Shown here in pieces: positions 17,731 through 44,658 of a stretch of 64,000 nucleotides of DNA. Made by a program: the position numbers and the translations under genes. The stretch lies in the IMG/VR virus record IMGVR_UViG_3300020434_000055; one strand, given 5' to 3'. The DNA comes from a virus. Taxonomy: Duplodnaviria > Caudoviricetes. The stretch's first letter is position 1. Every line of letters begins with the position of its first letter. A model generated the notes under the pieces. That model ran no database searches, was not told the origin of the DNA, and saw nothing but the letters and a program-made list of their open reading frames with translations.

Positions 17731-20322
17731 ATGACAAAACAGATAATACAAGATGGTATAATACCTAATGACGGTCAAGGTGACAGTCTTAGAACAGGTG
17801 CACAGAAAATAAACACAAATTTTGATGAGTTATATACTGCACTAGGAAATGGTAGTGCTTTAACTTCTATTTCAGATAATTTATTTAATTCAACAGGTTC
17901 TAACAAGATTGCGTTTCACTTTGATACGCTAGGAGATTTACCAGATGCCACAACCTATCACGGAATGTTCGCCCATGTACATAGTGAAGGTACAGGTTAT
18001 ATGTCTCATGCAGGAGCCTGGGTTAAACTCGTAGATGCAAATAAATCTATTGATGCTTTAGCAGATGTTAATACAACTAACACTACACCAACAGATGGAC
18101 AAGCATTACTTTGGGATAACGCAAATAGTTATTGGAAACCAGGTGACGTACAAGCATCAGGTGGTGGAACTTTTGTTTCATTATCAGATAGTCCTTCTAC
18201 TTTTTCTGGAGCAAATAATAAATTTGTAACAGTTAATAGTGGAGCAAGTGCTATAGAATTTACAACTCCAGTTATTGATAAAATTGGAGATGTAGATACA
18301 ACTACAACACCTCCAACAGCTGGTCAAGTATTAAAATGGAATGGATCTAATTGGGTTCCGGCTCAAGATTCTACATCAGGTGGAAGTGGATCAGACGCTG
18401 ACACATTAGATGGTTTAGATAGTCCATATTTTTTAGATTATAATAATTTTACTAATAAACCAACATCTTTTGGTAAATCTTTTAACGTATCTGCCGCAAC
18501 ATATACAGCCGCGTCAGGTATAATGCAATTAACTATTGGAGCACACGATTTAGTAATTGGTGACAATATTAAAATTGCTCCATTAAGTTTAACATTTTCT
18601 TGCGACATGGATAATCATGCTACTAATACGCAATATCCAAGAGCAACTGGAAGTGCCGCACCTGGTGGAATGGATTATGTATATAATAAACCAGTTGCAA
18701 TTACGGGTGCAGATGCAACAACAATTACAATGAATGTTGGAACTGGAAATCTTAAATCTTTTACTCCAACAGCCGCAATATACACACCAGCAACAGGTGT
18801 AATGGAATTAACTATTGGTACACACAATTACATAGCTGGTAACAAAGTTAGTATTACTACAGAAAGTTTAACTTTCACTTGCGCCTTAGATGGTCATTCA
18901 TCACAAAAAGCATATCCAAGAGCAACAGGTTCAGCCGCTCCAGGTGGAGCTGACTATGCCTACGAAACACTACAAACTCTTACATCAGTAAGTGCAACAA
19001 CAATTACAATGAATGTTGGAATATCAAGTAATACATCTGCACATACATTTGTAAGTGCTTCTGCTGGTGCTATAACAAGTTCAAATATTCATACATTTAT
19101 AAGTGCTACTTCTAATTGTATAACATTTGCAAAAAGATTTACAGAGTTATCAGATGCTCCATCTAGTTTTAGTGGATATGGAGATTATTATCTTAAAGTA
19201 AACACTGGTGGAACAGCTTTAGAACTTGTAACAAAACCTGGCGGAGCAACTAATTTATCAGGACTTTCTGATATAACAACATTAGGAAATTATTACAATA
19301 CATCAAATGCAGTATATACACCTGCGACAGGAGTAATAGTATTAACTATTGGACAACACAATTTACAAGTTGGTCACAATGTAAAAATTGCTTCAAACAG
19401 TTTAACATTTACTTGTGCAATGGATAGTAATGCAACAGAACATACATATCCAAGAGGAAGTGGATCAGCATATGCAGGTGGAAAAGATCCTGCTTATACT
19501 TCAGCAAGTACAATTACGGCAATAACTGCAGATTCAATTACTGTAAATGTTGGAATATCAAGTAATACAACAACACACACATTTATAAGATCTACTGAAA
19601 ATAATATATCAGTAGTTGATCAATCTTACAGTACATCAAATGCAACATATACACCTAACACAGGACAATTGCAATTAACTATCGGAAACCATGCCATACA
19701 GGCTGGACATTCTGTTATGATTGCCGCAAATAGTTTAACATTTACCTGCGCCTTAGATAGTAATACTACACAATCAACTTATCCAAGAGCAACTGGATCA
19801 GCGGCACCAGGTGGAATGGACTATGCTTACGAAAGACCTGTATTAATTACAGCCGTAAGTGCGACAACAATTACAATGAATTGTGGTGTATCAAGTAATA
19901 CATCAGCACATACATTTGTAAGTGCTGTTGCAAATAATATAAAAGTTGCACCAACACAAGGTGATTCATTGTACTTCAATGGAGTATCATGGTTAAGAAG
20001 AAACGGACCAGTATCAAGATATGAAATAATAAATGACAGTAGCAATAACTTTACTTGGACAGGACCTGGTTTAACATCAGCAACTAATGATCCAGTAATG
20101 TATATGAACAGAGGTCATACATATTATTTGATTAATCAAGCAGGAAGTTCTCATCCTTTAGAAATAAGAACTAGTAATGGTGGTAGTGGATATACATCAG
20201 GAGTAACAGGTAGTCAATCAGGTACACAAATATTTGAAGTACCAATGGATGCACCTGCTACATTGTATTACCAATGCACAATTCATTCTGCAATGGGTAA
20301 CACAATTAACATATTGAGTTAA
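17731..20322 (+). CDS. Tail fibre with T4 gp9/gp10-like N-terminus, four YPRATG domains and cupredoxin-like C-terminus
   Basis: NDGQGDSLRTGAQKINTNFDELY baseplate-attachment motif; four repeat domains; HPL...YYQCTIHSAM. Confidence 0.75.
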   Translation: MTKQIIQDGIIPNDGQGDSLRTGAQKINTNFDELYTALGNGSALTSISDNLFNSTGSNKIAFHFDTLGDLPDATTYHGMFAHVHSEGTGYMSHAGAWVKLVDANKSIDALADVNTTNTTPTDGQALLWDNANSYWKPGDVQASGGGTFVSLSDSPSTFSGANNKFVTVNSGASAIEFTTPVIDKIGDVDTTTTPPTAGQVLKWNGSNWVPAQDSTSGGSGSDADTLDGLDSPYFLDYNNFTNKPTSFGKSFNVSAATYTAASGIMQLTIGAHDLVIGDNIKIAPLSLTFSCDMDNHATNTQYPRATGSAAPGGMDYVYNKPVAITGADATTITMNVGTGNLKSFTPTAAIYTPATGVMELTIGTHNYIAGNKVSITTESLTFTCALDGHSSQKAYPRATGSAAPGGADYAYETLQTLTSVSATTITMNVGISSNTSAHTFVSASAGAITSSNIHTFISATSNCITFAKRFTELSDAPSSFSGYGDYYLKVNTGGTALELVTKPGGATNLSGLSDITTLGNYYNTSNAVYTPATGVIVLTIGQHNLQVGHNVKIASNSLTFTCAMDSNATEHTYPRGSGSAYAGGKDPAYTSASTITAITADSITVNVGISSNTTTHTFIRSTENNISVVDQSYSTSNATYTPNTGQLQLTIGNHAIQAGHSVMIAANSLTFTCALDSNTTQSTYPRATGSAAPGGMDYAYERPVLITAVSATTITMNCGVSSNTSAHTFVSAVANNIKVAPTQGDSLYFNGVSWLRRNGPVSRYEIINDSSNNFTWTGPGLTSATNDPVMYMNRGHTYYLINQAGSSHPLEIRTSNGGSGYTSGVTGSQSGTQIFEVPMDAPATLYYQCTIHSAMGNTINILS
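18481..19125 (+). repeat. YPRATG domain pair, one copy nested inside the other
   Basis: TATCCAAGAGCAAC cores at 18634 and 18913; order A1-B1-[A2-B2-C2]-C1. Confidence 0.85.
19291..19950 (+). repeat. YPRATG domain pair, tandem
   Basis: Cores at 19447 and 19780; each copy complete. Confidence 0.85.
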
Positions 20323-20711: not shown

Positions 20712-23700
20712 ATGGCAGATTTCAAAATAGATAGGATACGATTTAGATGGAGAGGTGACTGGGTAGCAGGTACTTCTTACATTAAAGATGATATCGTTAG
20801 ATATGGTGCAAAAATATTTGTCTCTATCGAAATGCATACAGCAGATGCTAACTTTTATAATGATTTAGATAATATAGTTCCAAGATGGTCACAAATGATG
20901 GATGGTCAAAGTTGGACTGGTAATTGGAAAACAAGTAATTTTTATAAAGTAGGTGAAGTAGCAAAAGTTGGAGCGGCAGTTTATAAATGTATAGAAGGTC
21001 ACTTATCAAATGCAAGTGAAGCCAATGGATTATTAGGTGATGAAAATAAATGGGTTTACTTTGCAAGAGGTGAAAAATGGACATCTTTATGGCAACCTAA
21101 TACACTTTATAACGTTGGTGAAACAATTGTTTATGGTGGATCAGTTTGGAAATGTATAACATCACATACTTCTTCAACTACAGCCGCAGGTATAGAATAT
21201 CATCAAGCCAATTGGGTTCAATATCATAGATCAGATTTTTACAGAGGTTATTGGGCACCAAATATAAGATATTATCCAGATGATATAGTAAGAAATGGTG
21301 GAGTAATTTACAGAGCTGTAACAGGACATACAAGTGCCGCAGTAGATTATTGGAACGATTTAGATAGTACAGATTATACAACAAATTCATCAAGTGGTTC
21401 TGGTGCAGTTATAAATGTTTTCAGAGTTGGCACAACTTATTATGTAAAATTTACAAATGCAGGAGTAAACTTTGCGGCGGCAGAAACTATTTCTATAGTA
21501 GGTAGTAAAATTGGTGGAGCCGATGGTACAAATGATTTATCAATCACTATTAATACAGTAAACAGTGGAGCAATAGCAACGACATCTGCAAATGGTACTG
21601 CTGTTTCAGGTAGTGCAGGTTTAGAAGCCGATCAAGCAAAATGGGAAATAGTTCTTGATGGTATTGAATATGAAGATGATTGGGCATACGGAAAAAAATA
21701 TAATAAAGGTGCTCTTGTATCTTGGAGTCCGGGAATTTGGCAAGTAACTACTAGTCACTGGTCAATAACGGATTACATGAATGAAGCTAATTTTTCATTA
21801 TGGGTTCCAGGTGCAGAATACGAAGGAACTTACTCTACTACACAATATTATCAAAAAGGTGACGTTGTACATTATGGTGGTTATAGTTATGTTGCTTTAG
21901 TAAGCAATACAAATATTATTCCAGGGGTTACAGATAGTACAAATACTTGGGAATTAATTCAAACAGGTTATAATTTTAGAAGCGAATGGAATAGTTCAAC
22001 TGCATATAAAACAGGAGATGTAGTTAGAGCAGGTGGTAACTTATTCATAGCAGTACAAGATAGTACTGGAGCAGATCCTGATACAACTTTTATCTATGAT
22101 CCAGGTAGTGATGCTCCTGATCCTTGGCAATTATTAGTAACTGGTAAAGCATTTAAAGGTTCTTGGAAAGAAAGTGATTCCAACGGAGCAATTACTTACT
22201 TTGTAGGTGATGTAGTTACAGTAGCAGGAACAGTATACGCTTGTATTAAAACACATGAGTCATCATCATCTGATTCTAAACCAACTTTAGATGAAGAAAG
22301 TGAAAATGTCGGTCCTTATTGGGTAATGATAGCCAAAGGTAATGAACCAGGCGCTTTAGTACTTGAACAAATAGGTGACGTAAAAAGTTTTGATACAGAA
22401 AAAACAAGAATAGGTTTAGGAACAGTAGGACAATTATTTAAAGGCAATGCAACTGGTGATTATCCAATATGGGGTGATCATGATGTAATAAAAAATGTAT
22501 TTTTTGTTTCACCTTATGGAACAGACACTCCTACTAGTGGTAAAAGTGTTGCAGGACCTTTTAAAACAATCAAATATGCTTGTGATTTTGTAGCGGCAGA
22601 TTTAGCCGAACGAACACCATGTACTATAGCAATTAAAACTGGTGTATATGAAGAAATATTACCTATTACGGTCCCAAGAGATACACACATTTGGGGAGAT
22701 TTTACAAGACGTGGTGTGAACGTTAGACCTAAAGCAGGTTATACAACAACAGATATGTGGCGTGTAAACAATGCCTGTGGTATTGCAAATATGACAATGC
22801 AAGGAAAAACAGGTGGATTAACTGCCGCAAATGAATATGGAACAAAAAGAACAACAGGTGGAGCATATGTAACTTTAGATCCAGGTAGTGGACCTGCAGA
22901 TACAAGTGTTCATATTTTAACAAAATCACCTTACATTAAAAACTGTTCAATATTTGGAACAGGATGTACTGGATTAAAAGTAGACGGAGACTTACACGAT
23001 GGTGGTCTCAAATCTTTTGTTGCTAATGATACTACACACTTTATTGAAAATGGAATTGGCGCTCATGTTAATGGAGATGCTAGAGTAGAATTTGTTTCAG
23101 TATTTGCCTATTACGCCCACATAGGATATTTGGCAACAGGCGGTGGAAAATTTAGAGCAACAAATGGAAATTCATCTTATGGTGATTTTGGTTGTGTTGC
23201 AGAAGGACAGTTAGCGGCAGAAACTCCAACAACTGGAAAAATTAATAACCAATCACAAGAAGCACAGGTAGATGCAGTTTATAATGATGAAAATGAAATA
23301 TTTGCTTTTGCATATGATCACGCAGGACAAAATTATTCATCAGCAACAATTAATATTTTCGGTTCAGGAGAAGGAGCCGCGGCAACATTAGGTTACGATC
23401 AAATTAGAAATGGTGGAGTAGGTAAAGTAAGAATTAAAGGATTAGGTGATTCATCTACAGCTGGTGGTTCAAATTATACTAGTGAAATAGCACCTTCACA
23501 AGGTGGTGATGCAACATCAATTAAATTAGCACAACAATACGAAGGTACGCCAGCCGAAACTGTAGGACAAAGAATTTATATATGGGAAGGTACAGGTAGA
23601 GGTCAGTATGGATATGTTCATACTTACGACTCAGGTACAAAAGTTGCAACTATTAAAAGAGAATTTGATGATACAGATGGTTGGCAACACGTGATGGGTG

Positions 23701-26700
23701 GTTTCCCTATTGAAACTTTACTTAATGCATCTACAAAATATTCTATAGAACCTAGAATTACATTTACAGATGGACCTTATAATAAATCTACTCCTTCTTT
23801 TGGAACTACAGGAGAAATGTTAGTATCTGCATCAGGAAGAGTTGGAGCATCTGATGTTACAGTATTACTTGGTAATGGTAAAGGAAATAGAACAACAGAT
23901 GGTTCAAACTGGACTGCTGTTAGTGGAGTTCCTTTAGCTGACTGGATCGGAATGACTAGAACAGAAAATTATTTTATAGCAGTAGCACAAGATGGAACAA
24001 CTGCTAGATCCGCCGACGGTGCAACATGGACTAATATCACAACAAGTCAATATAGTACAACAGGAGGAACATATACACCATCTACAGGAGAATTAGTATT
24101 AGAAATTGGAGCACATGAAGTAGGTCAGACTTATAGTACAACAAGTGCAACATATACACCAGCAACAGGTGTAATGGAATTAGGTATAGAAAAACATACT
24201 CCTGGAGCACAATTTACTCCATCAGCCGCAACATACACTCCGGCAACAGGAGTATTAGAATTAACTATAGGATCACATAGTTTAGTAGCAGGTAATAAAG
24301 TTAAAATTGCTCCAAATAGTTTAACATTTACTTGCGCCTTAGACAGTCACGCTACTGAAAAAACATATCCAAGAGCAACTGGAAGTGCCGCACCAGGCGG
24401 AGTAGATTATTTCTACGAAAAAGCAATAACTCTTACGTCAGTAGGTGCAACAACAATTACAATGAACGTTGGTGATACTAGTATATCAGGCAATAACTCA
24501 ACACACACATTTGTAAGTGCTACTTCTAATTCTGTAACAGAACAAGTTATTGGAGCACACAATTTACATATTGGTAATGAAGTTAAGATTGCACCAACAA
24601 GTTTATCTTTTACTTGTTCTTTTGATGATCATACTGCTCAAACAGCCTATCCAAGAGCAACTGGATCTGACGCACCGGGTGGTTACGATTATTATTATTA
24701 TAGCCCAGTAGAAATTACAGCCACAACAGCATCAACAATTACAATGAATGTTGGTAAAGGAAATATTAAAAATTATACTGTAACAGACGCGGCTTATACA
24801 CCAGCAACAGGAGTAGTAATATTAACTATTGGTGATCATAATTTAGTAGCTGGTAATCATATTGACATTGCTCCATTAAGTTTAACATTTACTTGTGCCC
24901 AAGATAGTCATGCAACAGAACATAGCTATCCAAGAGCAACAGGTTCAGCCGCTCCAGGTGGTTATGATTATTTTTATAATAAACAAATAGAAATTATTTC
25001 AGCAGGTGCAACAACAATTACTGTAAATGTTGGAATATCAAGTAATACAACAGCACATACATTTATAAGTGCTCTTGCTGACGGTGTATCAAATTCAAAT
25101 ACACATACATTTGTAACTGCTCTTGCAAATAATATAACATTAGCAGGTCAATTTGTTATGATTGCTCCAAACAGTTTAGGTTTTACTTGTTCTTTTGATA
25201 ATAATGTATCAACTCATACATATCCAAGAGCAACAGGATCAGCGGCGCCAGGTGGAATGGATTATTTTTACGATACACCAGTTGAAATTCAAAGCAGAAC
25301 AGCAACAACAATTACAATGAATGTTGGAAAAGGAAATATTAAAAGTTACACTCCAACAGCCGCAGTATATACACCTGCATCAGGAGTAATGGTATTAACC
25401 ATTGGAGCACATAGTTTAATAGCTGGTAATTATGTTGATATTGCTACAGACAGTTTAACATTTACTTGCGATCAAGATAGTCATGGTAGTAATCATACAT
25501 ATCCAAGAGCAACTGGAAGTGCCGCACCTGGTGGTTATGATTATTATTACGAAAAACCAATAAGAGTTGAGTCAGTAGGTGCAACAACAATTACTCTAAA
25601 TGTTGGTATATCAAGTAATACAACAGATCACTTATTTGTAAGTGCGACTGCTGATTGTGTAACAAATTCAAATGCACACACATATGTAAGTGCTACTGCG
25701 AATAATGTATCTTATTATTCTGTTCCTGTTGATGTAATGTCAGGTATTGCATATCGTAATGGAACTGTAATAATTGCATCAGAAACAGGAATGGTTTATA
25801 AATCAACTGATGACGGTTCTAGTTTCTCAGCTGATCAATTAGAAGTTTATGATGGTTCAACATCGATATTCACATATATTGCCGCTGGAAATGGATTATG
25901 GATAGCAGGTAATGGAACTGGAAAAACTTATGAAAGTCAAGATGAAGGAACAACTTGGTCATTAGGTTCTAATATTGGAGACAAATTAATGGATATTAAC
26001 GGTGTTCTTAAATCTGTTCACAGATATGATGTAACATCATTAATATTTGGTGGTGGTAAATTTGTAGCAACAGTAATAGACGCTCCAGGAGATGAAAGTA
26101 CAGTTATTAGTAAATTTATGATATCAAATGCTACAGGACAAGTTGGAGCTTCTGAACAAACAGCTACAAGATGGACAGAAAGTGAAACACCTCCACACGC
26201 AGGACCTTACATTGGAGTTGCATATACTGAAGGTACATATGTTGCAATATCGGCCGGTGGAGATCTTGCTTACAGTTATGACGCTTGGTCTTGGAAAATA
26301 TTAGATTCTGCATTAACAGGAACGTTTTCAAGTATAGGTAGTGGTAAAGCTGGCGGTGGACATTTTGTTCCTTTACAAACTGGTAGTACCGGTACAACAT
26401 ATTTGTTAAGAAAAGGTTCAAGACCTTTAGCAAGAGCAATTACAAGTTCTCAAGTAATTACAAAATTACAAATTTTATCTCCAGGTAGTGGATATTCAAC
26501 TGCACCAGCAGTTACAATAACTGACAATAAAGCTACAACTGATGCAAGTCTTGAAGCAAGAATATTTGATGGAGTATTAGGTCAACCAGAATTTTCAAAT
26601 AGAGGTTCAGGATTTATGAATGTATCTGCAACATTAACAGGAGATGGTTTTGCAGATGAATATCAAATTGGTCCTTATCTTCAAGTAAAAGATATGAACG

Positions 26701-27533
26701 GAAAACCAGGACCAGGTGCAATTTTATATATAAATGGACTTGAAGATCAAGTTTATAGAATAACTCAGGTTAATAATGTAACAGGAAATTCTCCTAACAT
26801 TGCCGCTCAGTTTAGAATAACACCTAGACTAAATGCAAATGAATCTCCTGATCATGAAACAACAATAGAAATAAGAGAAAGATACAGTCAAGTTAGAATA
26901 ACTGGTCATGATTTCTTAGATATTGGAACAGGTAATAAATCTACAACTAATTATCCAGGTTTATACACTAGTGGTTATACACCAGGTTATGAACGTAAAC
27001 AACAAAATGAAACTGTATCAAATGGAGGAGGTAGAGTATTTTATACTTCTACTGACCAAGATGGAAATTATAGAGTTGGAGAATTATTTGAAGTAGAACA
27101 ATCTACAGGAATAGTAACATTAAACGCAGATTTATTTGACTTATCAGGTTTAACAGAAATTACCTTAGGTGCAGGTGGAGTTGGTGGTACTGATGTTAAA
27201 ATTAATGAATTTAGTACAGATCCAACGTTGAAGAAAAATTCAAATAGTGTGATACCTACACAAAAAGCAATTGCTACATTCGTTGGCTCTAGAGTTTCTG
27301 GAGGAGGTGCAAATCTTATTACTAATGAAGTTAGAGCAGGACAAATAAAATTTGCTAATGATCAAATATTTAATGAAGCATTTCCGGCGGCTGGACAAGT
27401 TGTATTTGCCGCTACAGTAAATATTTCAAATGTTTCTGGGCCTATGTTAGCACAATCATACTTTTTTGGCTCTAATGTTAGAGATAGCTGGGATGAAGGT
27501 GGAGTAGAACGGGACACATTGTATGGAAATTAA
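20712..27533 (+). CDS. Giant tail fibre/spike: CBM5/12-like W-Y repeats, beta-helix, BNR/Asp-box propeller, five nested YPRATG domains
   Basis: W...T.Y..GD.V..GG..Y.C...HTS repeats; Asp-boxes (SADGATW, STDDGSSF, SQDEGTTW); paralogue of 27582. Confidence 0.75.
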   Translation: MADFKIDRIRFRWRGDWVAGTSYIKDDIVRYGAKIFVSIEMHTADANFYNDLDNIVPRWSQMMDGQSWTGNWKTSNFYKVGEVAKVGAAVYKCIEGHLSNASEANGLLGDENKWVYFARGEKWTSLWQPNTLYNVGETIVYGGSVWKCITSHTSSTTAAGIEYHQANWVQYHRSDFYRGYWAPNIRYYPDDIVRNGGVIYRAVTGHTSAAVDYWNDLDSTDYTTNSSSGSGAVINVFRVGTTYYVKFTNAGVNFAAAETISIVGSKIGGADGTNDLSITINTVNSGAIATTSANGTAVSGSAGLEADQAKWEIVLDGIEYEDDWAYGKKYNKGALVSWSPGIWQVTTSHWSITDYMNEANFSLWVPGAEYEGTYSTTQYYQKGDVVHYGGYSYVALVSNTNIIPGVTDSTNTWELIQTGYNFRSEWNSSTAYKTGDVVRAGGNLFIAVQDSTGADPDTTFIYDPGSDAPDPWQLLVTGKAFKGSWKESDSNGAITYFVGDVVTVAGTVYACIKTHESSSSDSKPTLDEESENVGPYWVMIAKGNEPGALVLEQIGDVKSFDTEKTRIGLGTVGQLFKGNATGDYPIWGDHDVIKNVFFVSPYGTDTPTSGKSVAGPFKTIKYACDFVAADLAERTPCTIAIKTGVYEEILPITVPRDTHIWGDFTRRGVNVRPKAGYTTTDMWRVNNACGIANMTMQGKTGGLTAANEYGTKRTTGGAYVTLDPGSGPADTSVHILTKSPYIKNCSIFGTGCTGLKVDGDLHDGGLKSFVANDTTHFIENGIGAHVNGDARVEFVSVFAYYAHIGYLATGGGKFRATNGNSSYGDFGCVAEGQLAAETPTTGKINNQSQEAQVDAVYNDENEIFAFAYDHAGQNYSSATINIFGSGEGAAATLGYDQIRNGGVGKVRIKGLGDSSTAGGSNYTSEIAPSQGGDATSIKLAQQYEGTPAETVGQRIYIWEGTGRGQYGYVHTYDSGTKVATIKREFDDTDGWQHVMGGFPIETLLNASTKYSIEPRITFTDGPYNKSTPSFGTTGEMLVSASGRVGASDVTVLLGNGKGNRTTDGSNWTAVSGVPLADWIGMTRTENYFIAVAQDGTTARSADGATWTNITTSQYSTTGGTYTPSTGELVLEIGAHEVGQTYSTTSATYTPATGVMELGIEKHTPGAQFTPSAATYTPATGVLELTIGSHSLVAGNKVKIAPNSLTFTCALDSHATEKTYPRATGSAAPGGVDYFYEKAITLTSVGATTITMNVGDTSISGNNSTHTFVSATSNSVTEQVIGAHNLHIGNEVKIAPTSLSFTCSFDDHTAQTAYPRATGSDAPGGYDYYYYSPVEITATTASTITMNVGKGNIKNYTVTDAAYTPATGVVILTIGDHNLVAGNHIDIAPLSLTFTCAQDSHATEHSYPRATGSAAPGGYDYFYNKQIEIISAGATTITVNVGISSNTTAHTFISALADGVSNSNTHTFVTALANNITLAGQFVMIAPNSLGFTCSFDNNVSTHTYPRATGSAAPGGMDYFYDTPVEIQSRTATTITMNVGKGNIKSYTPTAAVYTPASGVMVLTIGAHSLIAGNYVDIATDSLTFTCDQDSHGSNHTYPRATGSAAPGGYDYYYEKPIRVESVGATTITLNVGISSNTTDHLFVSATADCVTNSNAHTYVSATANNVSYYSVPVDVMSGIAYRNGTVIIASETGMVYKSTDDGSSFSADQLEVYDGSTSIFTYIAAGNGLWIAGNGTGKTYESQDEGTTWSLGSNIGDKLMDINGVLKSVHRYDVTSLIFGGGKFVATVIDAPGDESTVISKFMISNATGQVGASEQTATRWTESETPPHAGPYIGVAYTEGTYVAISAGGDLAYSYDAWSWKILDSALTGTFSSIGSGKAGGGHFVPLQTGSTGTTYLLRKGSRPLARAITSSQVITKLQILSPGSGYSTAPAVTITDNKATTDASLEARIFDGVLGQPEFSNRGSGFMNVSATLTGDGFADEYQIGPYLQVKDMNGKPGPGAILYINGLEDQVYRITQVNNVTGNSPNIAAQFRITPRLNANESPDHETTIEIRERYSQVRITGHDFLDIGTGNKSTTNYPGLYTSGYTPGYERKQQNETVSNGGGRVFYTSTDQDGNYRVGELFEVEQSTGIVTLNADLFDLSGLTEITLGAGGVGGTDVKINEFSTDPTLKKNSNSVIPTQKAIATFVGSRVSGGGANLITNEVRAGQIKFANDQIFNEAFPAAGQVVFAATVNISNVSGPMLAQSYFFGSNVRDSWDEGGVERDTLYGN
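24051..25712 (+). repeat. Five YPRATG domains, nested
   Basis: Cores at 24366, 24648, 24927, 25221 and 25500. Confidence 0.85.
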
Positions 27534-27581: not shown

Positions 27582-30500
27582 ATGGCTGAGTTTAAACTAG
27601 GTAGAATTAGATTTGTTTGGAAAGGTTCTTGGGTAACTTCAACATCATATTACGTCGATGACGTTATAAGATATGGTGGAAGAACCTATAATTGCGTATC
27701 AAATCACATTGCTAACGCAGATTTCCAAGTAGACTTATCTGCTGAAAACTGGCAATTAATGTCCGATGGTCAAGAATGGAAAAGTGACTGGTCATTAAAC
27801 ACAGTTTACAAACCAAATGATGTTGTAAAATATGGTGGTTACATTTATATTTGTAACACAGGACACACATCTGCCGCAACGGTAGAACTTGGCTTAGAAA
27901 ATCATCAATCTTATTGGGATTTATTTGTAGAAGGATTTGATTGGAAATCTGATTGGACAATTTCTACTAGATATAAAGTAAATGATTTAGTAAAATATGG
28001 TGGATCAGTTTATCTTTGTATAGAAGAACACACATCAGATACAACAACAGCAGTTGGCTTAGAAGGAAAACAAAGCAAATGGGAAATTTTTGGAAAAGGT
28101 TTTGTTTGGTTAGGCGACTGGGCAATTAATACTAGATACAGAGTAAATGATACAGTTAGATACGGTGGACAAATTTATATTAACATAACTGGACATACTT
28201 CAGCGGCAACTATCGCAGATGGTTTAGAAGCCAATCAAGCACAATGGCAAGCCTTACACAAAGGAATAGAATATTTAGGTGCTCACGCGGCAACAACAAG
28301 ATATAAAGTTAATGATGTAGTAAAATATGGTGCAAATATTTGGATTGCTACAGCGGCACATACATCAACAACTTCTTTAGCGGCTGACGAAGGTAATTGG
28401 TCAGTTTTAATTCCAGGTTTAGAATTTGAAGATACTTGGGATTCTTCAACACAATATCAACCAGGTGACTTTATTACTTACGGTGGATATAGTTATGTTT
28501 CAAATACAAATAACGTTAATAAAAATCCACCTCTTAATTCAAGTGATTGGACATTATTTGTAACAGGATTTAATTTAAGAGGCGACTATAATGCCGTTAC
28601 TGCATACAAACAAGGTGACGTTGTTAGAGTTGGAGGTTTTACATATCTCGCAATTGCAGACACAACAGGTAATAAACCACCAAGTGTTTTACACTGGGAT
28701 AAACTTAATGAAGGTTTATATTGGAAAGGTAATTGGGCAAATGCAACTGAATTCGACAGAGGTGATATAGTAAGAGGAACTACTAACACTAATACAAGTT
28801 ATATTTGCGTAACAGGACACACATCAAATAATGTTGGACCAAGTACAATTAATCAACCAGACTATCCACCAGGAGCAGGTGTCGATACTAGTGTTTGGTC
28901 ATTATTAGCATCAGGAACAGAAAACGCTGTACTATCAGTAAAAGGTGATCTTTTAATTTATGGTCAATCAGGACCAGCTAGATTGCCAATTGGTAAAGCA
29001 GGACAAACTTTAATTGTAAACTCAGCAGGTGATCTTCCTGAATGGGGATACTTTGGAGCTGTAGATCAAGTTTATTATGTTTCAGAAACAGGAACAGATG
29101 TTCCAGCACCTGATTCAGGACCAACACTTGACAAACCTTGGAAAACTTTAAGATATGCTTTATGGCAAATTGAACAAGGACCAAGAAATCCTCAAGGAAC
29201 TTACATGATGGAAAGAAACAAAGCATTTATTCAAGCAGAAATTATAGCTTGGATTAACGCTCAAATTTCTGGAAACATTTCACCTTTCACATCAGGTTAT
29301 ACATACGACGCGGCAAAATGTACAAGAGACTCTGGATTAATGATTGATGCAGTTCTATGGGATTTAAGACATGGTGGAAATGAAAAATCAAGATATGCAA
29401 CACTTAGAATTTCAACTCAAACAGAATTTGTAAATAATTCTGCTGAATTACAAGCCTATCTTACTAGATTAGTTTATATTACACAACAAGTTACAGCCAA
29501 CAATGCAGGTTATTCTGCAGGACAAGGTACAATAAATCAAGTTGTTGATAACAATTATACTGCGGAGCCGGCTGTTAATGGAGAAATTGCAAGTTATATA
29601 CAAATTGCAATAGATTGTCTTGCGGCAGGTAATACATCTGGAGTACCTATAGAAGAAATAGCACAAACTACATTATTTGTTAAAACAGGAACATACGAAG
29701 AAGTGTTACCTCTTTCAATAAGAAAAGGAACAGCACTAGTAGGAGATGAATTAAGATCAACAGTTATTAAACCAGCGGGACAACAATCTTCAGTAAGCGA
29801 CACAGCATTTACATTACAAGGTATTGGTAGAATGCAGGCAATTTTGTCTGACATAGTTCAGAACGTTGCTGTAACACCAACACCTGTAGGAGGTGTTACA
29901 TTTTTAACAACACCTGCACCAGATTTAGGTTTTGTTAATGGAACTTACACTAACGTTGCAGTAACAGGTGGAACTGGAACAGGATGTACAGTAGATTGTA
30001 CTGTTTTATCATTTGCAATTACGGCTTTGTCTATAAATTCACCAGGACAGAATTATGTAGTTTCTGATGCATTAACAATTCCAGCGGCAACAATTGGAGC
30101 AGATGGAGTTTCAACTGTAACAGGAGTTACAACAGGAAATAATTTAACTCAAAATACAGATCTTCCTGTAGGTTCAGCGGCGGCAGGTACAGCGGCGGCG
30201 GCAATTGGACAAAATATTATAGATCATATAACTTACAAAGTTAATGCAACTGGATCTGATCCAGCATTAACTGGTGTTAATAGTGCAGATTCAACTGCAG
30301 GTTTCACAGATGCAAGATTAAGACTATTAGCAAATAAAGAATTTATTGCATTAGAAGCCGCGGAGTTTGTACAAAGAGCAAATCCAACTCATAGTAATTT
30401 TAAAGAAAAATGTTTGAATGATATTAGAATATATGTTCAAACAATTATGGACGACTTAGAATATACCGGCAATTATAAATCATTGAAAGCCTCAGATGCC

Positions 30501-33500
30501 TACATTAATTCTAGACTTGCAAAAGGTTCTAGTGCAAATGATATGTTCTATGTTAGAAATGCTTCAGGAATAAGAAATGTAACAGTAGAAGGTTTAATAG
30601 GAACATTAGGTACTACTCAATTCTCTACAACAGCGGCAACATACACACCAGCAACAGGTGTAATGGAATTAACTATTGGATCACATAGTATTGCTGTTGG
30701 TGAAAAAGTAATGATTGCTTCAAATAGTTTAATCTTTACTTGCGATCAAGATACTCACGCTACTCAACATAGCTATCCAAGAGCAACTGATCCTTATTAC
30801 AATAAAGAAATTTTAGTTACAGGTGCGACAGCGACTACAATTACAATGAATGTTGGAATATCAAGTAATACAACAGGACATACATTTGTAATGGCTACTG
30901 AAGATAATGTAACATTAGCTACTGCAAATGAATATGGAACAAAAAGACCAACAGGTGGAGCATATGTATCATTAGATCCAGGTTGGGGACCAGCACATGA
31001 AGAAGTATGGATTAAGTCTAAATCACCTTATATCCAAAATGTAACAACTTGGGGAGAAGGTTGTGTTGGAGTAAAAGTAGACGGTGCATTACACGATGGT
31101 GGTTTTGATTCTATCGTTGGAAATGACTTTACACAATTATGCGATAATGGTATTGGTGCTTGGATTACAAATTTAGGTAGAGTAGAACTTGTATCAGTAT
31201 TTTCTTATTATGCACACATAGGTTACCTTTGTGAAAATGGTGGAAAACTTCGTTCTACAAACGGAAATTCATCTTATGGTGATTTTGGTTGTGTTGCAGA
31301 AGGAACAGATGCAAGTGAAACTCCAATAACAGCAACAATAGATAATAGAAGTACAGATGCAGTTATTGACAATGTTATAACAGATGCTAATCAAATATTA
31401 GCATTTGAATATGATAATGCAGGTAGACAATATAGTAATGCAACATTTACTATATCTGGACCTGGTTATGGAATTGCTGGAACAACTCCAACTTATAATA
31501 CTGGTGGTGTTTACAAAATTAGATTAATAGAAACTAATCAAGAAGTAAGTGATCAAGGTGGATCAACTTACATGACTGCACTTAATACTGGACAAACAGG
31601 TGACACTACATCAATTACTATAGCTAACGCAGATAGTAATGCCTCAGGGGCTTATCCTGGAATGGCAATATGGATTGTAGAAGGAAAAGGTGTAGGACAA
31701 TATGCATATATTAATACTTACAATGCAACAAGTAAAGTTGCAACTGTTAAAAAATATTCAAATGCCGCAGACGGTTGGGAAAGACTTGGCGGTTTAGCGG
31801 TAGAGGCAACATTAGACAATACAACAAAATATAGTATTGAACCGAGAGTAGTTATTGCGGCTCCTCAAGATGATGGAAGTACAGCAGTTAGACAAGCAGT
31901 TGCAAGAGCAGTTGTTACAACAGAAAAAATTTCCAAAGTAAAAATTATAGATTGCGGAGCAAGTTATACTTCAGCACCTACTGTAACATTTACTGATCCT
32001 AACAATACTACAGATGCTCCAGTACAATCATACATAGATGATGGTGTATTAGGACAACCAACTTTCTCTGCAAGAGGAATTGACTTTGAAACTGCAAGTG
32101 CAACAGTATCTGACGCAGGAAGCGAAAAAGTTATTACAGGTATTTCACAAGCAAATCCAATGGAAGTTACAGCCGTAGCTCATAATTTTGTTGATGGTCA
32201 AAAAGTTGTATTTTCTGATATAGTTGGTATGACAGAATTAAATTCTGGTGTATATTTTTATATTAGATCTACAAGTGTAGATACATTTGCAGTTTACATT
32301 GACTTTGATTTAAATAATGGATTAGATTCAACTAATTTCACAGCATACGTTTCAGGTGGTAAAGCAACAAGCTTCGGTGGATTTAGAGATGAATATCAAT
32401 TTGGAAGATATCTTCAAGTAGAAGGATTAACAAAAGTACCTCAAGCAGGTTCTAATATAGAATTTGATGGCATTGGTTCTACAACATATCCTTATGCATA
32501 TGATGTTCTAACTTCAAATAAAGAATTTTTAAAAGATGAAGTTGTTTCTTGGTTTGATAATACTGGTTATCCAGGTGTTCATTCTCAAGCAGAATTAGAT
32601 AAGTGCGAAAGAGACGTAGGATATGAAATAGATGCGTTAGCACATGATTTAAAATTTGGCGGTAATACAGAAACAGTTAGGGTAGCAAAATTTTATTGGA
32701 TTGGAACTAATACACAACTAGGCGTAGGTGAACAAGCCTATGCAGTTGCAGTTAATAATAAATTAAAAGAAATAATTAATGGTTATATTCTTACTAATAC
32801 TGGTTGGTCAACAGAACAAACTCCAGTTGTTACTACTCAAACTACAACTGCATTTAATGGAGAAACTGGTACAATAGATAAAATTACAACATTAATTACA
32901 AACTTTAATGATGTTATTGAAAATGGTTTAACATCATTACCAGCTACAATAGGATTAAATAATCCTTACTACAAAATAGTAAGTGTTAAAAATCAAGCAG
33001 GATCACAAGCTCCTTATTCAGCACTATTACAAATTAGTCCACAATTAAGTGTAGCACAATCACAAGAGCATGGTTCTCAAGTGACAATGAAATTTAGATA
33101 CAGTCAAGTTAGATTGACTGGTCATGACTTTTTGGATGTTGGTACTGGTGACACAGCTAACACCAATTATCCTGGAACACCTTTAAATGATCCAGATTCA
33201 GCTAATGAAGCCGTTGGAAGAGGTGGAGGTAGAGTATTCTTCTCCGCAACTGATCAAGACGGTAACTTTAAAGTTGGAGAATTATTCTCAGTACAACAAG
33301 CAACAGGTATTGCTACGTTGAATGCTGATGCATTTAATATTTCAGGATTACAAGAGCTTCAGTTAGGAGATCAAACATTAGGAGGCACTAGTGCCGCTAT
33401 TAATGAATTCTCCACTGACGGGACAATGGCGGCTAATAGTGATTCCATTGTACCAACACAACGGGCAATAAGAACTTATATCGCTTCACAAATTGGTGGT

Positions 33501-33668
33501 GGTGCAAGTTCTATTAACGTTAACTTGATAACTGCAGGATTAATTCAGATATCAGGCAATTCAATAAATACAACAACAGGAGTAAGCATCAATATTGCAA
33601 GTCCAGTTAATTTCCTTAAAGGGGTTAGCGGAGGACCATTGGCGATGAACTTCTTAATACATAGTTAA
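27582..33668 (+). CDS. Giant tail fibre/spike, paralogue of 20712
   Basis: MAEFKLGRIRFVWKGSW start; same W-Y repeats, beta-helix and C-terminal GHDFLD.GTG..GGGRVF block; helical KC.RD repeats. Confidence 0.75.
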   Translation: MAEFKLGRIRFVWKGSWVTSTSYYVDDVIRYGGRTYNCVSNHIANADFQVDLSAENWQLMSDGQEWKSDWSLNTVYKPNDVVKYGGYIYICNTGHTSAATVELGLENHQSYWDLFVEGFDWKSDWTISTRYKVNDLVKYGGSVYLCIEEHTSDTTTAVGLEGKQSKWEIFGKGFVWLGDWAINTRYRVNDTVRYGGQIYINITGHTSAATIADGLEANQAQWQALHKGIEYLGAHAATTRYKVNDVVKYGANIWIATAAHTSTTSLAADEGNWSVLIPGLEFEDTWDSSTQYQPGDFITYGGYSYVSNTNNVNKNPPLNSSDWTLFVTGFNLRGDYNAVTAYKQGDVVRVGGFTYLAIADTTGNKPPSVLHWDKLNEGLYWKGNWANATEFDRGDIVRGTTNTNTSYICVTGHTSNNVGPSTINQPDYPPGAGVDTSVWSLLASGTENAVLSVKGDLLIYGQSGPARLPIGKAGQTLIVNSAGDLPEWGYFGAVDQVYYVSETGTDVPAPDSGPTLDKPWKTLRYALWQIEQGPRNPQGTYMMERNKAFIQAEIIAWINAQISGNISPFTSGYTYDAAKCTRDSGLMIDAVLWDLRHGGNEKSRYATLRISTQTEFVNNSAELQAYLTRLVYITQQVTANNAGYSAGQGTINQVVDNNYTAEPAVNGEIASYIQIAIDCLAAGNTSGVPIEEIAQTTLFVKTGTYEEVLPLSIRKGTALVGDELRSTVIKPAGQQSSVSDTAFTLQGIGRMQAILSDIVQNVAVTPTPVGGVTFLTTPAPDLGFVNGTYTNVAVTGGTGTGCTVDCTVLSFAITALSINSPGQNYVVSDALTIPAATIGADGVSTVTGVTTGNNLTQNTDLPVGSAAAGTAAAAIGQNIIDHITYKVNATGSDPALTGVNSADSTAGFTDARLRLLANKEFIALEAAEFVQRANPTHSNFKEKCLNDIRIYVQTIMDDLEYTGNYKSLKASDAYINSRLAKGSSANDMFYVRNASGIRNVTVEGLIGTLGTTQFSTTAATYTPATGVMELTIGSHSIAVGEKVMIASNSLIFTCDQDTHATQHSYPRATDPYYNKEILVTGATATTITMNVGISSNTTGHTFVMATEDNVTLATANEYGTKRPTGGAYVSLDPGWGPAHEEVWIKSKSPYIQNVTTWGEGCVGVKVDGALHDGGFDSIVGNDFTQLCDNGIGAWITNLGRVELVSVFSYYAHIGYLCENGGKLRSTNGNSSYGDFGCVAEGTDASETPITATIDNRSTDAVIDNVITDANQILAFEYDNAGRQYSNATFTISGPGYGIAGTTPTYNTGGVYKIRLIETNQEVSDQGGSTYMTALNTGQTGDTTSITIANADSNASGAYPGMAIWIVEGKGVGQYAYINTYNATSKVATVKKYSNAADGWERLGGLAVEATLDNTTKYSIEPRVVIAAPQDDGSTAVRQAVARAVVTTEKISKVKIIDCGASYTSAPTVTFTDPNNTTDAPVQSYIDDGVLGQPTFSARGIDFETASATVSDAGSEKVITGISQANPMEVTAVAHNFVDGQKVVFSDIVGMTELNSGVYFYIRSTSVDTFAVYIDFDLNNGLDSTNFTAYVSGGKATSFGGFRDEYQFGRYLQVEGLTKVPQAGSNIEFDGIGSTTYPYAYDVLTSNKEFLKDEVVSWFDNTGYPGVHSQAELDKCERDVGYEIDALAHDLKFGGNTETVRVAKFYWIGTNTQLGVGEQAYAVAVNNKLKEIINGYILTNTGWSTEQTPVVTTQTTTAFNGETGTIDKITTLITNFNDVIENGLTSLPATIGLNNPYYKIVSVKNQAGSQAPYSALLQISPQLSVAQSQEHGSQVTMKFRYSQVRLTGHDFLDVGTGDTANTNYPGTPLNDPDSANEAVGRGGGRVFFSATDQDGNFKVGELFSVQQATGIATLNADAFNISGLQELQLGDQTLGGTSAAINEFSTDGTMAANSDSIVPTQRAIRTYIASQIGGGASSINVNLITAGLIQISGNSINTTTGVSINIASPVNFLKGVSGGPLAMNFLIHS
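30612..30920 (+). repeat. Single YPRATG domain inserted in a beta-helix loop
   Basis: Core at 30774; absent at the equivalent site of paralogue 20712. Confidence 0.8.
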
Positions 33669-42468: not shown

Positions 42469-44658
42469 ATGGCAGTAAATTATAAACCTTTAGAATCGCA
42501 ATATGGTTATAAATCCCCAGGATTTGTTGTAGATGATACGGGTAATGTAACAGTAAGAACTGTAACCAGCACATATATTCCAACACCAGCTGAATCCGTA
42601 AATTTCATAGTTTCTGAAGATGCAAGTCAATTTACTATGGTGGCACCTTCAGCCGCATCTTATACTCCAACAGCCGCATCATATACACCTTCAACAGGAG
42701 TAATGGTATTAACTATTGGAACACATACTTTACAAGCTGGTAATAAAATTAAAATTGCCCCTAATAGTTTAACATTTACTTGTAACATGGACGGTCACGC
42801 TACTGAAAAAACATATCCAAGGGCAACTGGATCAGCCGCACCTGGTGGAGTAGATTATTTCTATGATAAAGAAATAACACTTACTGGTAGAACAGAAACA
42901 ACAATTACAATGAACGTTGGTGATACTAGTATATCAGGTAACAATCATCCACATACGTTTGTAAGAGCTACTGCTGATTGTGTAACTAATGAGTCTTTAG
43001 GAACTAATCCACTTCTTTCTTTAGAAAGAGGACAAAGTTATGTTTTTAAACTTAATGAATTAAGTTCTTTAACATTTAATACATTTTCACCTGACGGTAA
43101 TAATCCTTTAGTTCCAGGAAATCTTTTTAATGATGGTTTAAAACACGTTACAACTATTACAGGAAATACACTTGTATCTGGTACTTTAACATTTGCTCAA
43201 TCTTGGCAACAAGAAACAGATTATAATAGATCTGTATCTATAGTTGTACCTGATACTGCAAATACTCCTTTACAAGGAAAACAAATACCTGTAGTTATAA
43301 GTTTGCATAATACAAATAAAACAATGGGGAATGGTATTGCAAACATTACATATATGACAGACAAAATTTTAATTGCTCCTCAAGGTTATAATAATGAATG
43401 GAATGTTGGTTATCAAACTAGTAAAGCAAATGATATTGCATTTCTTGATAGCATTATAGAAGAATTAGAAAAGTATGACAATGTAGATACTACAGCTATT
43501 ACAATAGTAGGTAAAGGTAATGGCGGACAGTTAGCACATCAATATGGTTTACAAACAACAAAAACAAATGTTACAAACATAGTAATTGAGTCAGCATTAT
43601 TTCACGAAGATCAATACAGAAAAGATACTAATACGTTTTATGGAATGAATTTAACAAATTTAGGAGATTCAACAGTTGTATCTTGGTCGGCTGTATCAGT
43701 TTTACCTAAAAATATTTTAATGTTTCACGGTGAGGTAGATTTAGTTTTTCCTTATAATGGTGGAACTGTAAGTGGTCAAACTTTTACTAACGCAGAAGAT
43801 ACTATATATGGTTGGGCAAAAGCAAATAATACAGCTGAAGCACAATTAAGCAACTCTGGTGTTACACAATCAGATGGGTCAAACTTATTCTCATATAATT
43901 CTGGTGATGTTCAAATGTATGGATTTCCTAATATAGCACAAAATTGGGACGCATTTCTAACATCAGTTCAAGCAAAAATAAATGCTTTAGCAACACCTAA
44001 TTCTTATTTGAATATTCCAGTAATTACAGATACTACTGAAGGTGATGCACAAGGAAAAGCAACAGGACTTACAACGTGGGAAGTTCCAGTAGATGCTCCA
44101 GATGTATTATTTTATGGAAATAGTAATCGAAATCCTTATGGATCAGTTGCTATTACTAACCCAACTCTTGTAGGAATAGGATCTTTTAGTTCTATTCTTA
44201 ATACAGGAAATTTCTTTAGTTCAGGTGAAGATGCAATTATAACAATGAGTCCAACAGGTACTGGTACTGTAACTATTTCTCCAGCAGGTGGTGGATTTGT
44301 AAACAATGTAAATGTTAATGCAACTAATTTAACAGTAGGTGGAGAAGTAACTATAACACCTAATGAAGATGTAACTATAAGCCCACAAGTAAATGGTACG
44401 TTAGCAATGAACCCTTTATCAAGAGGTGAAATGAATAATATGAATATAGGAGGTTCTATAGCAGGAGATGGGTCTTTTTCTAGTTTAGTTTCTAGCGGAG
44501 GAACGTTAAATAACACTACAATTGGTGTAACTACACCTGCAAATGCTGGGTTCTTAACTGCTACGGCGGAAAACGTTCCGACAGATAAAAAGGACTTAGG
44601 TAATAAAGCGTATATTGATAATACCTCAATGGTATATTCAATTGCATTAGGAGTATAA
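42469..44658 (+). CDS. Tail protein with one YPRATG domain and a degenerate alpha/beta-hydrolase domain
   Basis: Repeat at about 42661-42990; LIAPQG..W, DIAFL, IVGKGNGG, FHGEVDLVFPYNGG; ends YSIALGV. Confidence 0.65.
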   Translation: MAVNYKPLESQYGYKSPGFVVDDTGNVTVRTVTSTYIPTPAESVNFIVSEDASQFTMVAPSAASYTPTAASYTPSTGVMVLTIGTHTLQAGNKIKIAPNSLTFTCNMDGHATEKTYPRATGSAAPGGVDYFYDKEITLTGRTETTITMNVGDTSISGNNHPHTFVRATADCVTNESLGTNPLLSLERGQSYVFKLNELSSLTFNTFSPDGNNPLVPGNLFNDGLKHVTTITGNTLVSGTLTFAQSWQQETDYNRSVSIVVPDTANTPLQGKQIPVVISLHNTNKTMGNGIANITYMTDKILIAPQGYNNEWNVGYQTSKANDIAFLDSIIEELEKYDNVDTTAITIVGKGNGGQLAHQYGLQTTKTNVTNIVIESALFHEDQYRKDTNTFYGMNLTNLGDSTVVSWSAVSVLPKNILMFHGEVDLVFPYNGGTVSGQTFTNAEDTIYGWAKANNTAEAQLSNSGVTQSDGSNLFSYNSGDVQMYGFPNIAQNWDAFLTSVQAKINALATPNSYLNIPVITDTTEGDAQGKATGLTTWEVPVDAPDVLFYGNSNRNPYGSVAITNPTLVGIGSFSSILNTGNFFSSGEDAIITMSPTGTGTVTISPAGGGFVNNVNVNATNLTVGGEVTITPNEDVTISPQVNGTLAMNPLSRGEMNNMNIGGSIAGDGSFSSLVSSGGTLNNTTIGVTTPANAGFLTATAENVPTDKKDLGNKAYIDNTSMVYSIALGV
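42661..42990 (+). repeat. Single YPRATG domain
   Basis: Core at 42814; closely similar at DNA level to the copy at 24366. Confidence 0.85.

What the first reader, a model, noticed from the sequence alone, without database searches (positions are those of the whole stretch)
18481..42990. The same domain is mobile across four virion genes (11 copies), with a clean filled-versus-empty site
Seen: TATCCAAG-cored copies at 18634, 18913, 19447, 19780, 24366, 24648, 24927, 25221, 25500, 30774 and 42814. In ORF 27582 it sits between NVTVEGLIGTLG and ANEYGTKRPTGGAYVSLDPG, while paralogue 20712 reads NMTMQGKTGGLTAANEYGTKRTTGGAYVTLDPG with no insert. Copies 24366 and 42814 share long near-identical DNA (cacgctactgaaaaaacatatccaag...acaattacaatgaacgttggtgatactagtatatcagg), suggesting recent copying. 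The child-in-parent junction TITMNVG[TK]GN[LI]K recurs three times. Inference: an in-frame mobile module, spread by recombination or gene conversion, decorates several appendages with one ligand-binding unit.
Basis: partly seen in the sequence, partly recalled or inferred. Interest (0 to 1): 0.75.

Follow-up and report, generated by a model that had tools for sequence, protein, structure and literature searches.

The report
Plug-in barrel domain spreading among cyanophage fibres
A small, unnamed beta-barrel domain sits 11 times in four tail and baseplate genes of a T4-like marine phage, and comparison with related phages shows it was pasted in frame into three of those genes at different times, a clear case of how phages rebuild their host-contact parts from one module.

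Summary
The window has exactly 11 copies of one module of about 100 aa, at the stated places, in four plus-strand virion genes.

The module has three parts: an N hairpin, a core and a closing strand. The window holds 11 of each, and they parse without violation as nested insertions, up to three deep in gene 20712.

Related phages give the direction of change:
- The copy in gene 42469 is missing from about 44 orthologue clusters.
- The five-copy, 558-aa block in gene 20712 is missing from the 22 nearest orthologue clusters.
- The single copy in gene 27582 is shared with one relative but missing from more distant orthologues, which have an unbroken site.
- Only the four copies in the gp10-like gene keep their positions in that relative.

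Synonymous sites between copies are not saturated, whereas the surrounding paralogous sequence is.

I found no sign of an autonomous element. The recurring parent-child junction looks inherited by copying a nested pair as a unit, not made three times. Ligand binding is untested.

The fold is predicted with high confidence (pLDDT 97.7). It has no Pfam family and no close solved structure.

This scan had already noted self-nesting of this kind of barrel in three other cyanophage genomes.

The parts
17731..20322 (+). gp10-like baseplate wedge / fibre-connector gene (863 aa), host of four modules
   Evidence: PF07880 T4_gp9_10_N at aa 3-51; phrog_677. Element string NKNKCCNKCNKC.
18487..18741 (+). 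g10_1, parent module: N hairpin and core, interrupted after NVGTGN
   Evidence: N and K HMM hits. Its closing strand lies at 19084-19110.
18766..19059 (+). g10_2, complete child module nested inside g10_1
   Evidence: N, K and C HMM hits.
19084..19110 (+). displaced closing strand (SSNIHTFISA) of g10_1
   Evidence: C HMM hit, 6.4 bits. It balances the element count.
19303..19596 (+). g10_3, complete module
   Evidence: 85% aa identical to its orthologue in relative R.
19636..19929 (+). g10_4, complete module
   Evidence: It pairs with its R orthologue (bootstrap 90).
20712..27533 (+). tfA, tail-fibre-like gene (2273 aa) with four CBM5/12 repeats and a beta-helix-like region
   Evidence: PF02839, phrog_9851.
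22812..22835 (+). empty site in tfA (GGLTAANE) matching the filled site of tfB
24045..25718 (+). 558-aa block of five modules nested three deep (tfA aa 1112-1669); a gain specific to this lineage
   Evidence: Absent from R's tfA (1717 aa), whose flanks are 70% and 62% identical. Absent from the 22 nearest orthologue clusters. Element string NNNKCKNKCCKNKCC parses with 0 violations.
24060..24116 (+). orphan N hairpin of outermost module A (core 25143-25328, closing strand 25662-25697)
   Evidence: N HMM hit, 23.9 bits.
24141..24197 (+). orphan N hairpin of module B (core 24561-24755, closing strand 25089-25121)
   Evidence: N HMM hit, 20.5 bits.
24219..24524 (+). tfA_1 (module C), complete and innermost; closest relative of the copy in gene 42469
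24561..24755 (+). tfA_2, core of module B (parent type)
   Evidence: In a clade with g10_1 and tfA_4 (bootstrap 86).
24780..25073 (+). tfA_3 (module D), complete child nested in B
25143..25328 (+). tfA_4, core of module A (parent type)
   Evidence: Groups with R's g10_1 (bootstrap 96).
25353..25649 (+). tfA_5 (module E), complete child nested in A
27582..33668 (+). tfB, paralogue of tfA (2028 aa)
   Evidence: PF02839 and PF16190. Its scaffold is saturated at synonymous sites against tfA in most bins.
30610..30918 (+). in-frame insertion in tfB carrying module tfB_1 (elements 30630-30899; short-loop form)
   Evidence: Same position in R. Orthologues P0332 and P0328 read GTLG-SAN(A)YGTKRP without a break.
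30602..30609 (+). AACATTAG, left copy of an 8-bp direct repeat; right copy at 30911-30918
   Evidence: Resampling gives p about 0.012, but the choice was post hoc and only this one of three sites has a repeat.
42469..44658 (+). g729, virion-cluster gene with an esterase / PHB-depolymerase-like part
   Evidence: NF050058 weak hit. Gene order matches the orthologue locus L017.
42640..42996 (+). insertion in g729 carrying module g729_1 (elements 42667-42972); a gain specific to this lineage
   Evidence: About 44 orthologue clusters of 618-626 aa lack it; there about 6 aa stand in its place.

Best explanation
The 11 copies are instances of one independently folding, all-beta barrel module of 95-110 aa. 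The family has no name, and among isolates it occurs only in T4-like cyanophages.

The module is encoded as three parts: an N hairpin (YTPxTGxLxLTIGxH), a core (...FTCxxDxH...YPR...TITxNVG) and a closing strand (SSNTxxHTFVSA). It can sit inside a surface loop of a host protein, and two of its own loops can hold another copy, so it can nest inside itself.

It spreads passively. Recombination during phage replication or co-infection copies a module, or a nested pair, in frame into a loop of another virion gene. Selection on host-contact proteins keeps some of these events.

In this lineage:
- The four copies in the gp10-like gene are old.
- The tfB copy entered before the split from relative R.
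- The five-copy nested block in tfA and the single copy in g729 entered after that split.
- The tfA block is built from gp10-type parent and child units.

Low-level gene conversion between copies has also occurred.

The likely effect is to add projecting barrels to fibre and baseplate proteins and so change reach or adhesion. A structural metal site is possible.

Shown: copy set, nesting grammar, direction of the gains, relative ages, fold confidence. Inferred: recombination mechanism, three-dimensional reassembly of the split modules, function, metal site.
For: - Copy set and balance: 11 N, 11 core and 11 closing elements. All four proteins parse as nested with 0 violations.
- Nesting across the family: (NK)nCn patterns recur. 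P0040 and P0049 show complete four-deep nests at residue level.
- Independent fold: AF2 with a 140-sequence alignment gives pLDDT 97.7, pTM 0.88 and nine strands.
- Direction of the gains: g729; tfA block; tfB. 117 of 120 homologues of the beta-helix region carry no module.
- Age: same-codon share is 72% against 51% expected, while control paralogues sit at expectation. The youngest pairs have dS 0.32-0.35, against 0.44-0.53 for window-versus-R orthologues.
- Unit copying: separate parent-type and child-type clades, 279-nt parent-to-child spacing in all three pairs, and gp10 as the block's nearest non-self relative (52% aa).
- Conversion: 71 genome-specific against 43 control sites; g10_2/tfB_1 alone 13 against 1.
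- Spread of the family: 321 phage records, all cyanophage or marine virus, with 1-16 places each. 553 protein clusters, with up to 24 stretches per protein.
- Real DNA: contigs from three independent studies cross both block junctions at 99% or better.
Against: - No junction shows a clear mechanistic scar. An 8-bp repeat occurs at one of three sites only.
- No intermediate forms of the tfA block (one to four copies) were found, so its stepwise assembly is inferred.
- Block copies are only 65-80% identical in DNA to gp10 copies, and tfA_4 is nearer to R's g10_1 than to the window's own. The donor may therefore have been another phage rather than this genome.
- The tree rests on 210 nt, and several nodes have weak support.
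- Reassembly of split modules in three dimensions was not modelled.
- No evidence bears on ligand or metal binding beyond invariant Cys, His and His.
Confidence: 0.75

Rival explanations
1. Old, fixed architecture with differential loss. The modules were present in the ancestors of all four genes and were cleanly deleted in other lineages.
For: The gp10-like gene keeps its four copies at the same positions in relative R. P-SSM2's fibre homologue has one short-loop copy in a collinear but not identical place. The 8-bp repeat flanking the tfB copy could promote deletion.
Against: It would need parallel exact losses in about 44 g729 orthologue clusters, in 22 or more tfA orthologue clusters and in 117 of 120 homologues. 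The empty sites are of uniform length. The youngest paralogue pairs have lower dS than window-versus-R orthologues.
Confidence: 0.07
2. All copies are old, and their similarity is kept up mainly by ongoing gene conversion (concerted evolution), not by new insertions.
For: Same-codon excess across almost all pairs. Genome-specific shared sites exceed the control pattern, 71 against 43. Nine of the 11 copies carry an identical ATGSAAPGG loop. A 42-nt perfect run lies inside a pair that is 81% identical.
Against: Orthology sites dominate (341), and orthologous copies pair in the tree. Conversion cannot create the copies that are absent from orthologues.
Confidence: 0.12
3. The module is, or rides on, an active mobile element, such as an intein-like or homing-endonuclease-driven element or a DGR target.
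For: Clean in-frame filled and empty sites. A conserved nucleotide core. One flanking 8-bp repeat.
Against: The module gets no significant Pfam match and no NCBIfam match. It is a plain 100-aa barrel. No repeats flank two of the three sites. Mismatches are not adenine-specific. The copies diverge like ordinary coding sequence.
Confidence: 0.03
4. Assembly artefact: repeats caused a metagenome assembler to build chimeric arrays.
For: The window is metagenome-derived and the region is repetitive.
Against: The near-identical strain G001 and clusters P0246 and P0155 have the same lengths. Contigs from three studies tile the block and cross both junctions with 0-2 differences; 20 runs from 9 studies hold it.
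Confidence: 0.01

Closest known systems
Promiscuous Ig-like domains on phage virion proteins (Fraser et al. 2006, J Mol Biol, 'a tale of promiscuity and deceit'; cited from my own knowledge, not read here)
   Same: One small beta domain appears in many unrelated structural proteins of phages. Copy number and position vary. It is thought to be added by recombination and to give weak adhesion.
   Different: The fold here is a closed barrel, not an Ig sandwich. It has no Pfam family. It nests inside itself. Here the direction of three gains could be read from orthologues.
Si3 insertion of cyanobacterial RNA polymerase beta-prime: eight sandwich-barrel hybrid motifs, four of them built from distant parts of the chain (PMC10895346)
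   Same: A solved case in which repeats of one small beta domain are not tandem: several copies are assembled from separated parts of the chain.
   Different: It is a cellular enzyme with a different fold, and one fixed insertion. No spread among several genes and no recent gains are known.
E1 FCCH-type small barrels and the beta-barrel domain of phage phi92 endosialidase (PDB 4p22, 2v31, 4hiz)
   Same: These are the best structural matches: Z 7.9 and 7.7, rmsd 2.1-2.5 over 76-77 residues. In my recollection (not checked here), the barrel of phage endosialidases is itself inserted into the beta-propeller. tfB carries a true Pfam FCCH segment elsewhere.
   Different: Z lies in the range the tool calls common for unmatched models. 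Foldseek finds nothing at E of 0.001 or better. The module has no Pfam FCCH hit. hhalign against tfB's own FCCH segment gives probability 7% over 21 columns.
Mosaic tail-fibre genes of T-even and other phages (segment exchange by recombination; established knowledge)
   Same: Host-contact genes are rebuilt by recombination of segments between genes and between phages.
   Different: What moves here is a defined folding unit placed into loops, including loops of its own copies, rather than collinear segment swaps between homologous fibres.

Membership tests
Unnamed cyanophage barrel module (segments of phrog_701, 1276, 18802, 5342, 2885) | Significant profile match over the whole module | tested here: met
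   The module alone hits these PHROGs at E 9e-20 to 3e-7. Profile built here: 553 clusters at E of 0.001 or better. All 11 cores score 68-85 bits.
Unnamed cyanophage barrel module (segments of phrog_701, 1276, 18802, 5342, 2885) | Invariant Cys (FTC), Pro (YPR) and His (HTF), and near-invariant His (IGxH) | tested here: met
   C43, P55 and H89 are invariant and H24 nearly so in 140 sequences. The split pieces of the window keep them.
Self-nested domain arrays (as in Si3 of cyanobacterial RNA polymerase) | Domains assembled from separated parts of the chain, with opening and closing parts balanced and properly nested | tested here: met
   11/11/11 elements and 0 grammar violations in the window. 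Four-deep nests in P0040 and P0049. This is sequence grammar only.
Self-nested domain arrays (as in Si3 of cyanobacterial RNA polymerase) | Three-dimensional completion of interrupted domains by the distant pieces | not tested
No coordinates are returned, so contacts could not be read.
Pfam PF16190 E1_FCCH | Pfam HMM match at or above the gathering score | tested here: not met
   No FCCH hit for any of the 11 copies at E up to 10. hhalign probability 7%. Structural Z 7.9 is inconclusive.
Ig-like phage decoration domains (Big_2, I-set, FN3) | Ig-type sandwich fold or a Pfam Ig-like match | tested here: not met
   No Pfam match. The top structural matches are small barrels.
DGR variable region | Differences between near-identical repeats confined to adenines of one copy | tested here: not met
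   61 mismatches spread over all base pairs (A 19, T 17, C 14, G 11).
Transposon-like or homing element | Target-site duplication at every insertion, or an associated nuclease or transposase | tested here: not met
   No repeat of 7 nt or more at the tfA block or the g729 site; 8 bp at tfB only. No enzyme family in the module. Neighbouring genes were not searched for nucleases.

The most novel reading that the evidence does not exclude
The module is a true intragenomic 'plug-in'. Its conserved nucleotide core and insertion-tolerant loops make it a preferred substrate for recombination, so cyanophages routinely gain, nest and lose it in fibre and baseplate genes to retarget host adhesion. The three separately encoded parts are clasped by one His/Cys/His(/Asp) metal site, which would enforce last-in-first-out folding of the nested copies.
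Probability: 0.12. Interest if true: 0.8.

Novelty: new variant of a known kind. Interest (0 to 1): 0.58.

Why it matters
Tail fibres and baseplates decide which Prochlorococcus and Synechococcus cells a phage can infect.

One undescribed folding unit accounts for much of the size difference between orthologous fibre genes: 558 aa in tfA and about 113 aa in g729. Elsewhere in the family it occurs up to 24 times in one protein.

Because orthologues with unbroken sites exist, each gain can be placed on a lineage. That gives natural pairs of phages with and without the module for host-range and adsorption tests.

The domain also deserves a family entry, since it has no Pfam or NCBIfam model. It is also a second natural example, after Si3 of cyanobacterial RNA polymerase, of a beta domain repeatedly inserted into itself.

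Tried and rejected
- Megablast of tfB against the phage collection found nothing, and the window's own assembly is not held.
- The first AF2 run, with the 11 window copies alone, was poor (pLDDT 62). It was used only for an atlas search, which still hit viral models.
- Foldseek against the PDB gave no match at E of 0.001 or better. AFDB clusters gave one family member and otherwise weak fibre and spike barrels.
- I planned to fold the g10 nested pair. A trial alignment put all single domains on the inner copy and left about 10 rows for the outer one, so I folded a single domain instead.
- The complex predictor was not used. Any N hairpin would be expected to dock on any bare core, so a pass would not discriminate.
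- A DGR reading was rejected on the mismatch spectrum.
- Target-site duplications: none at two of three sites.
- Copy-number variants in public runs: the only 'joints' were cross-mapping of the paralogous copies in tfB and g729. Contigs cannot show rare variants, so this is no evidence of absence.
- Homology to tfB's own FCCH segment is not significant.
- The long GSAAPGG loop as a marker of one lineage was rejected: similar long loops occur in other proteins of the family.
Full report
**What is there**

The window is the structural-gene block of a T4-like marine myovirus. Gene 17731-20322 has a T4 gp9/10 N-terminal domain and matches the baseplate-wedge and fibre-connector PHROG. Genes 20712 (tfA) and 27582 (tfB) are paralogous fibre-like giants with CBM5/12 repeats. 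Gene 42469 (g729) carries an esterase-like part.

It encodes the Tyr-Pro-Arg of a module of about 100 aa.

A six-frame scan with sub-profiles finds 11 N hairpins, 11 cores and 11 closing strands in the whole window, all on the + strand.

**Nesting**

The elements are not in tandem order. The gp10-like protein reads NKNKCCNKCNKC and tfA reads NNNKCKNKCCKNKCC. Both parse with no violation under the rule 'module = N [modules] K [modules] C'.

In tfA an outer module A holds module B in its first loop and E in its second. B in turn holds C and D.

The same grammar recurs across the family. P0040 and P0049 show complete four-deep nests at residue level, and other members use a further insertion point before the last core strand.

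Tandem duplication cannot produce NKNKCC. It needs a whole unit pasted between K and C.

I tested it by element counts and grammar, not by structure. The scan has follow-ups on similar self-nested barrels in three other cyanophage genomes.

**The domain**

There is no significant Pfam match and no NCBIfam match.

A profile of the 11 copies finds 553 protein clusters among 1.84 billion representatives, with up to 24 stretches in one protein. tblastn finds the module in 321 phage records, all cyanophages or marine viruses, at 1-16 places each.

In a 140-sequence alignment Cys43, Pro55 and His89 are invariant, and Tyr10, Gly15, His24 and Phe41 nearly so. The N hairpin, the core and the closing strand thus each supply one potential ligand (His24, Cys43, His89). 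This is why I raise a structural metal site, as inference only.

AF2 gives pLDDT 97.7, pTM 0.88 and nine strands.

Foldseek finds no solved structure at E of 0.001 or better. The exhaustive aligner gives Z 7.9 to the E1 FCCH barrel and 7.7 to the barrel domain of phi92 endosialidase, followed by other phage tail barrels. The tool rates these values as middling. ESM Atlas neighbours are all viral. hhalign against tfB's own Pfam FCCH segment is not significant.

**Direction of change**

*Near-identical strain.* G001 is 97.5-99% identical and has the same gene lengths.

*Relative R.* This relative is about 76% identical in DNA and its contigs come from several marine metagenomes. It has the gp10-like gene with four modules at the same positions and tfB with its module at the same place. 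Its tfA is 1717 aa and lacks residues 1112-1669 entirely, with flanks 70% and 62% identical.

*tfA.* The 22 nearest tfA orthologue clusters are 1713-1721 aa. Of 120 homologues of the beta-helix region, 117 carry no module.

*tfB.* More distant tfB-type orthologues read ...GTLG-SAN(A)YGTKRP... without a break. The tfB copy is therefore a gain in the common ancestor of the window phage and R.

*g729.* About 44 orthologue clusters of 618-626 aa lack the module, and only the window's own cluster has it. An orthologue locus has the same gene order, and there about six residues stand where the window has about 119.

*Other homologues.* P0104 has two units at a nearby but different place, and P-SSM2's homologue has one at a third place. 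A separate protein family comes in sizes of 652, 748 and 865 aa with 4, 5 and 6 cores.

**Ages**

At identical, degenerate residues the copies use the same codon in 2144 of 2982 comparisons (72%). Window codon usage predicts 51%. The tfA/tfB scaffold in most bins, and a trio of unrelated paralogues, sit at expectation.

The youngest pairs (tfA_1/g729_1, tfA_1/tfA_5, tfA_3/tfA_5) have NG86 dS of 0.32-0.35, below the 0.44-0.53 between window and R orthologues. This fits their absence from R.

**Origin of the block and of the repeated junction**

In a tree of the 210-nt core, orthologous copies of the window and R pair up: g10_3 100, tfB_1 93, g10_4 90.

The interrupted 'parent' copies (g10_1, tfA_2, tfA_4) group together (86-96). 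The complete 'child' copies (g10_2, tfA_1, tfA_3, tfA_5, g729_1) group together more weakly.

Parent-to-child spacing is 279 nt in all three nested pairs. The block's nearest non-self relative is the gp10-like protein (52% aa).

I therefore read the three identical junctions as one old junction copied together with the nested pair, not as three hits on one site.

Block copies are only 65-80% identical in DNA to gp10 copies, and tfA_4 is nearer to R's g10_1 than to the window's own. The donor may have been another phage.

**Conversion**

A four-sequence site test on the copies shared with R gives 341 orthology sites, 71 genome-specific sites and 43 of the control pattern. The one-sided binomial p is 0.006, but the pairs are not independent. 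The g10_2/tfB_1 pair stands out at 13 against 1. So some exchange between copies, including between genes, is likely, but it does not erase orthology.

**Mechanism**

No repeat of 7 nt or more flanks the tfA block or the g729 insert.

The tfB insert is flanked by AACATTAG, as note e1-5337696 said. Resampling gives p of about 0.012, but the site was chosen after the fact.

The tfA_1/g729_1 mismatches show no adenine bias, so there is no DGR signature. The module holds no enzyme.

I conclude passive copy-and-paste by illegitimate or short-homology recombination, which is ordinary for T4-like phages.

**Reality of the DNA**

Twenty public runs from nine studies hold the block. Contigs from three studies cross both junctions with 0-2 differences. 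The apparent joints are cross-mapping from the tfB and g729 copies.

**Verdict**

The spread is episodic, part of the architecture is old, the repeated junction is inherited, and ligand binding is untested.

The closest known parallels are the promiscuous Ig-like domains of phages, mosaic fibre genes and, for nesting, Si3 of cyanobacterial RNA polymerase (PMC10895346).

Noticed in passing
window 30930-31380 versus 22830-23100: Just downstream of the tfB insertion site, tfA and tfB share the same codon far more often than expected (44 of 54 against 29 expected, z 4.3). Most of the rest of the two scaffolds is saturated. This may be a conversion tract between the paralogues next to the site.
   Followed up: partly
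window 17731-18030 versus L009 2402-2701: Against the near-identical strain G001, 28 of the 65 differences in the gp10-like gene fall in its first 300 nt. About half of all differences in the three genes change the residue (31 of 65, 49 of 97, 37 of 63). This suggests fast protein-level change.
   Followed up: no
window 23830-26400 (tfA aa about 1040-1900): The five-copy block sits between repeats with Asp-box-like motifs (TTDGSNWT, SADGATWT, STDDGSSFS, SQDEGTTWS). This suggests a propeller-like region carrying an inserted barrel array. In my recollection, not checked here, phage endosialidases carry their barrel in a propeller in this way. Seen by eye only; Pfam gave no BNR hit.
   Followed up: no
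proteins P0225/P0229 (652 aa), P0222/P0224 (748 aa), P0211-P0219 (864-866 aa): A separate virion protein family (N-terminus MA[IV]APVNKF) comes in three sizes with 4, 5 and 6 module cores. This is copy-number variation of the same module among homologues in other phages.
   Followed up: partly
window 32178-32369 (tfB aa 1533-1596): tfB also carries a true Pfam E1_FCCH segment (E 2e-9), and FCCH is the module's best structural match. A remote common origin is possible but not shown (hhalign probability 7%).
   Followed up: partly
window 18634-25520, several pairs of copies: Several pairs of copies have dN equal to or above dS over the 66-codon core, for example g10_3/tfA_3 at 0.40/0.27 and g10_1/tfA_5 at 0.36/0.30. 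Either surface residues diversify fast or synonymous sites are held similar. The stretches are short, so this is noisy.
   Followed up: no
window 42469-44658 and L017 8001-9857: g729 and its orthologues weakly match an extracellular PHA-depolymerase catalytic domain (NF050058, 27 bits against a cut-off of 150). They sit in a conserved run after a carbamoyltransferase flanked by two paralogous genes.
   Followed up: no
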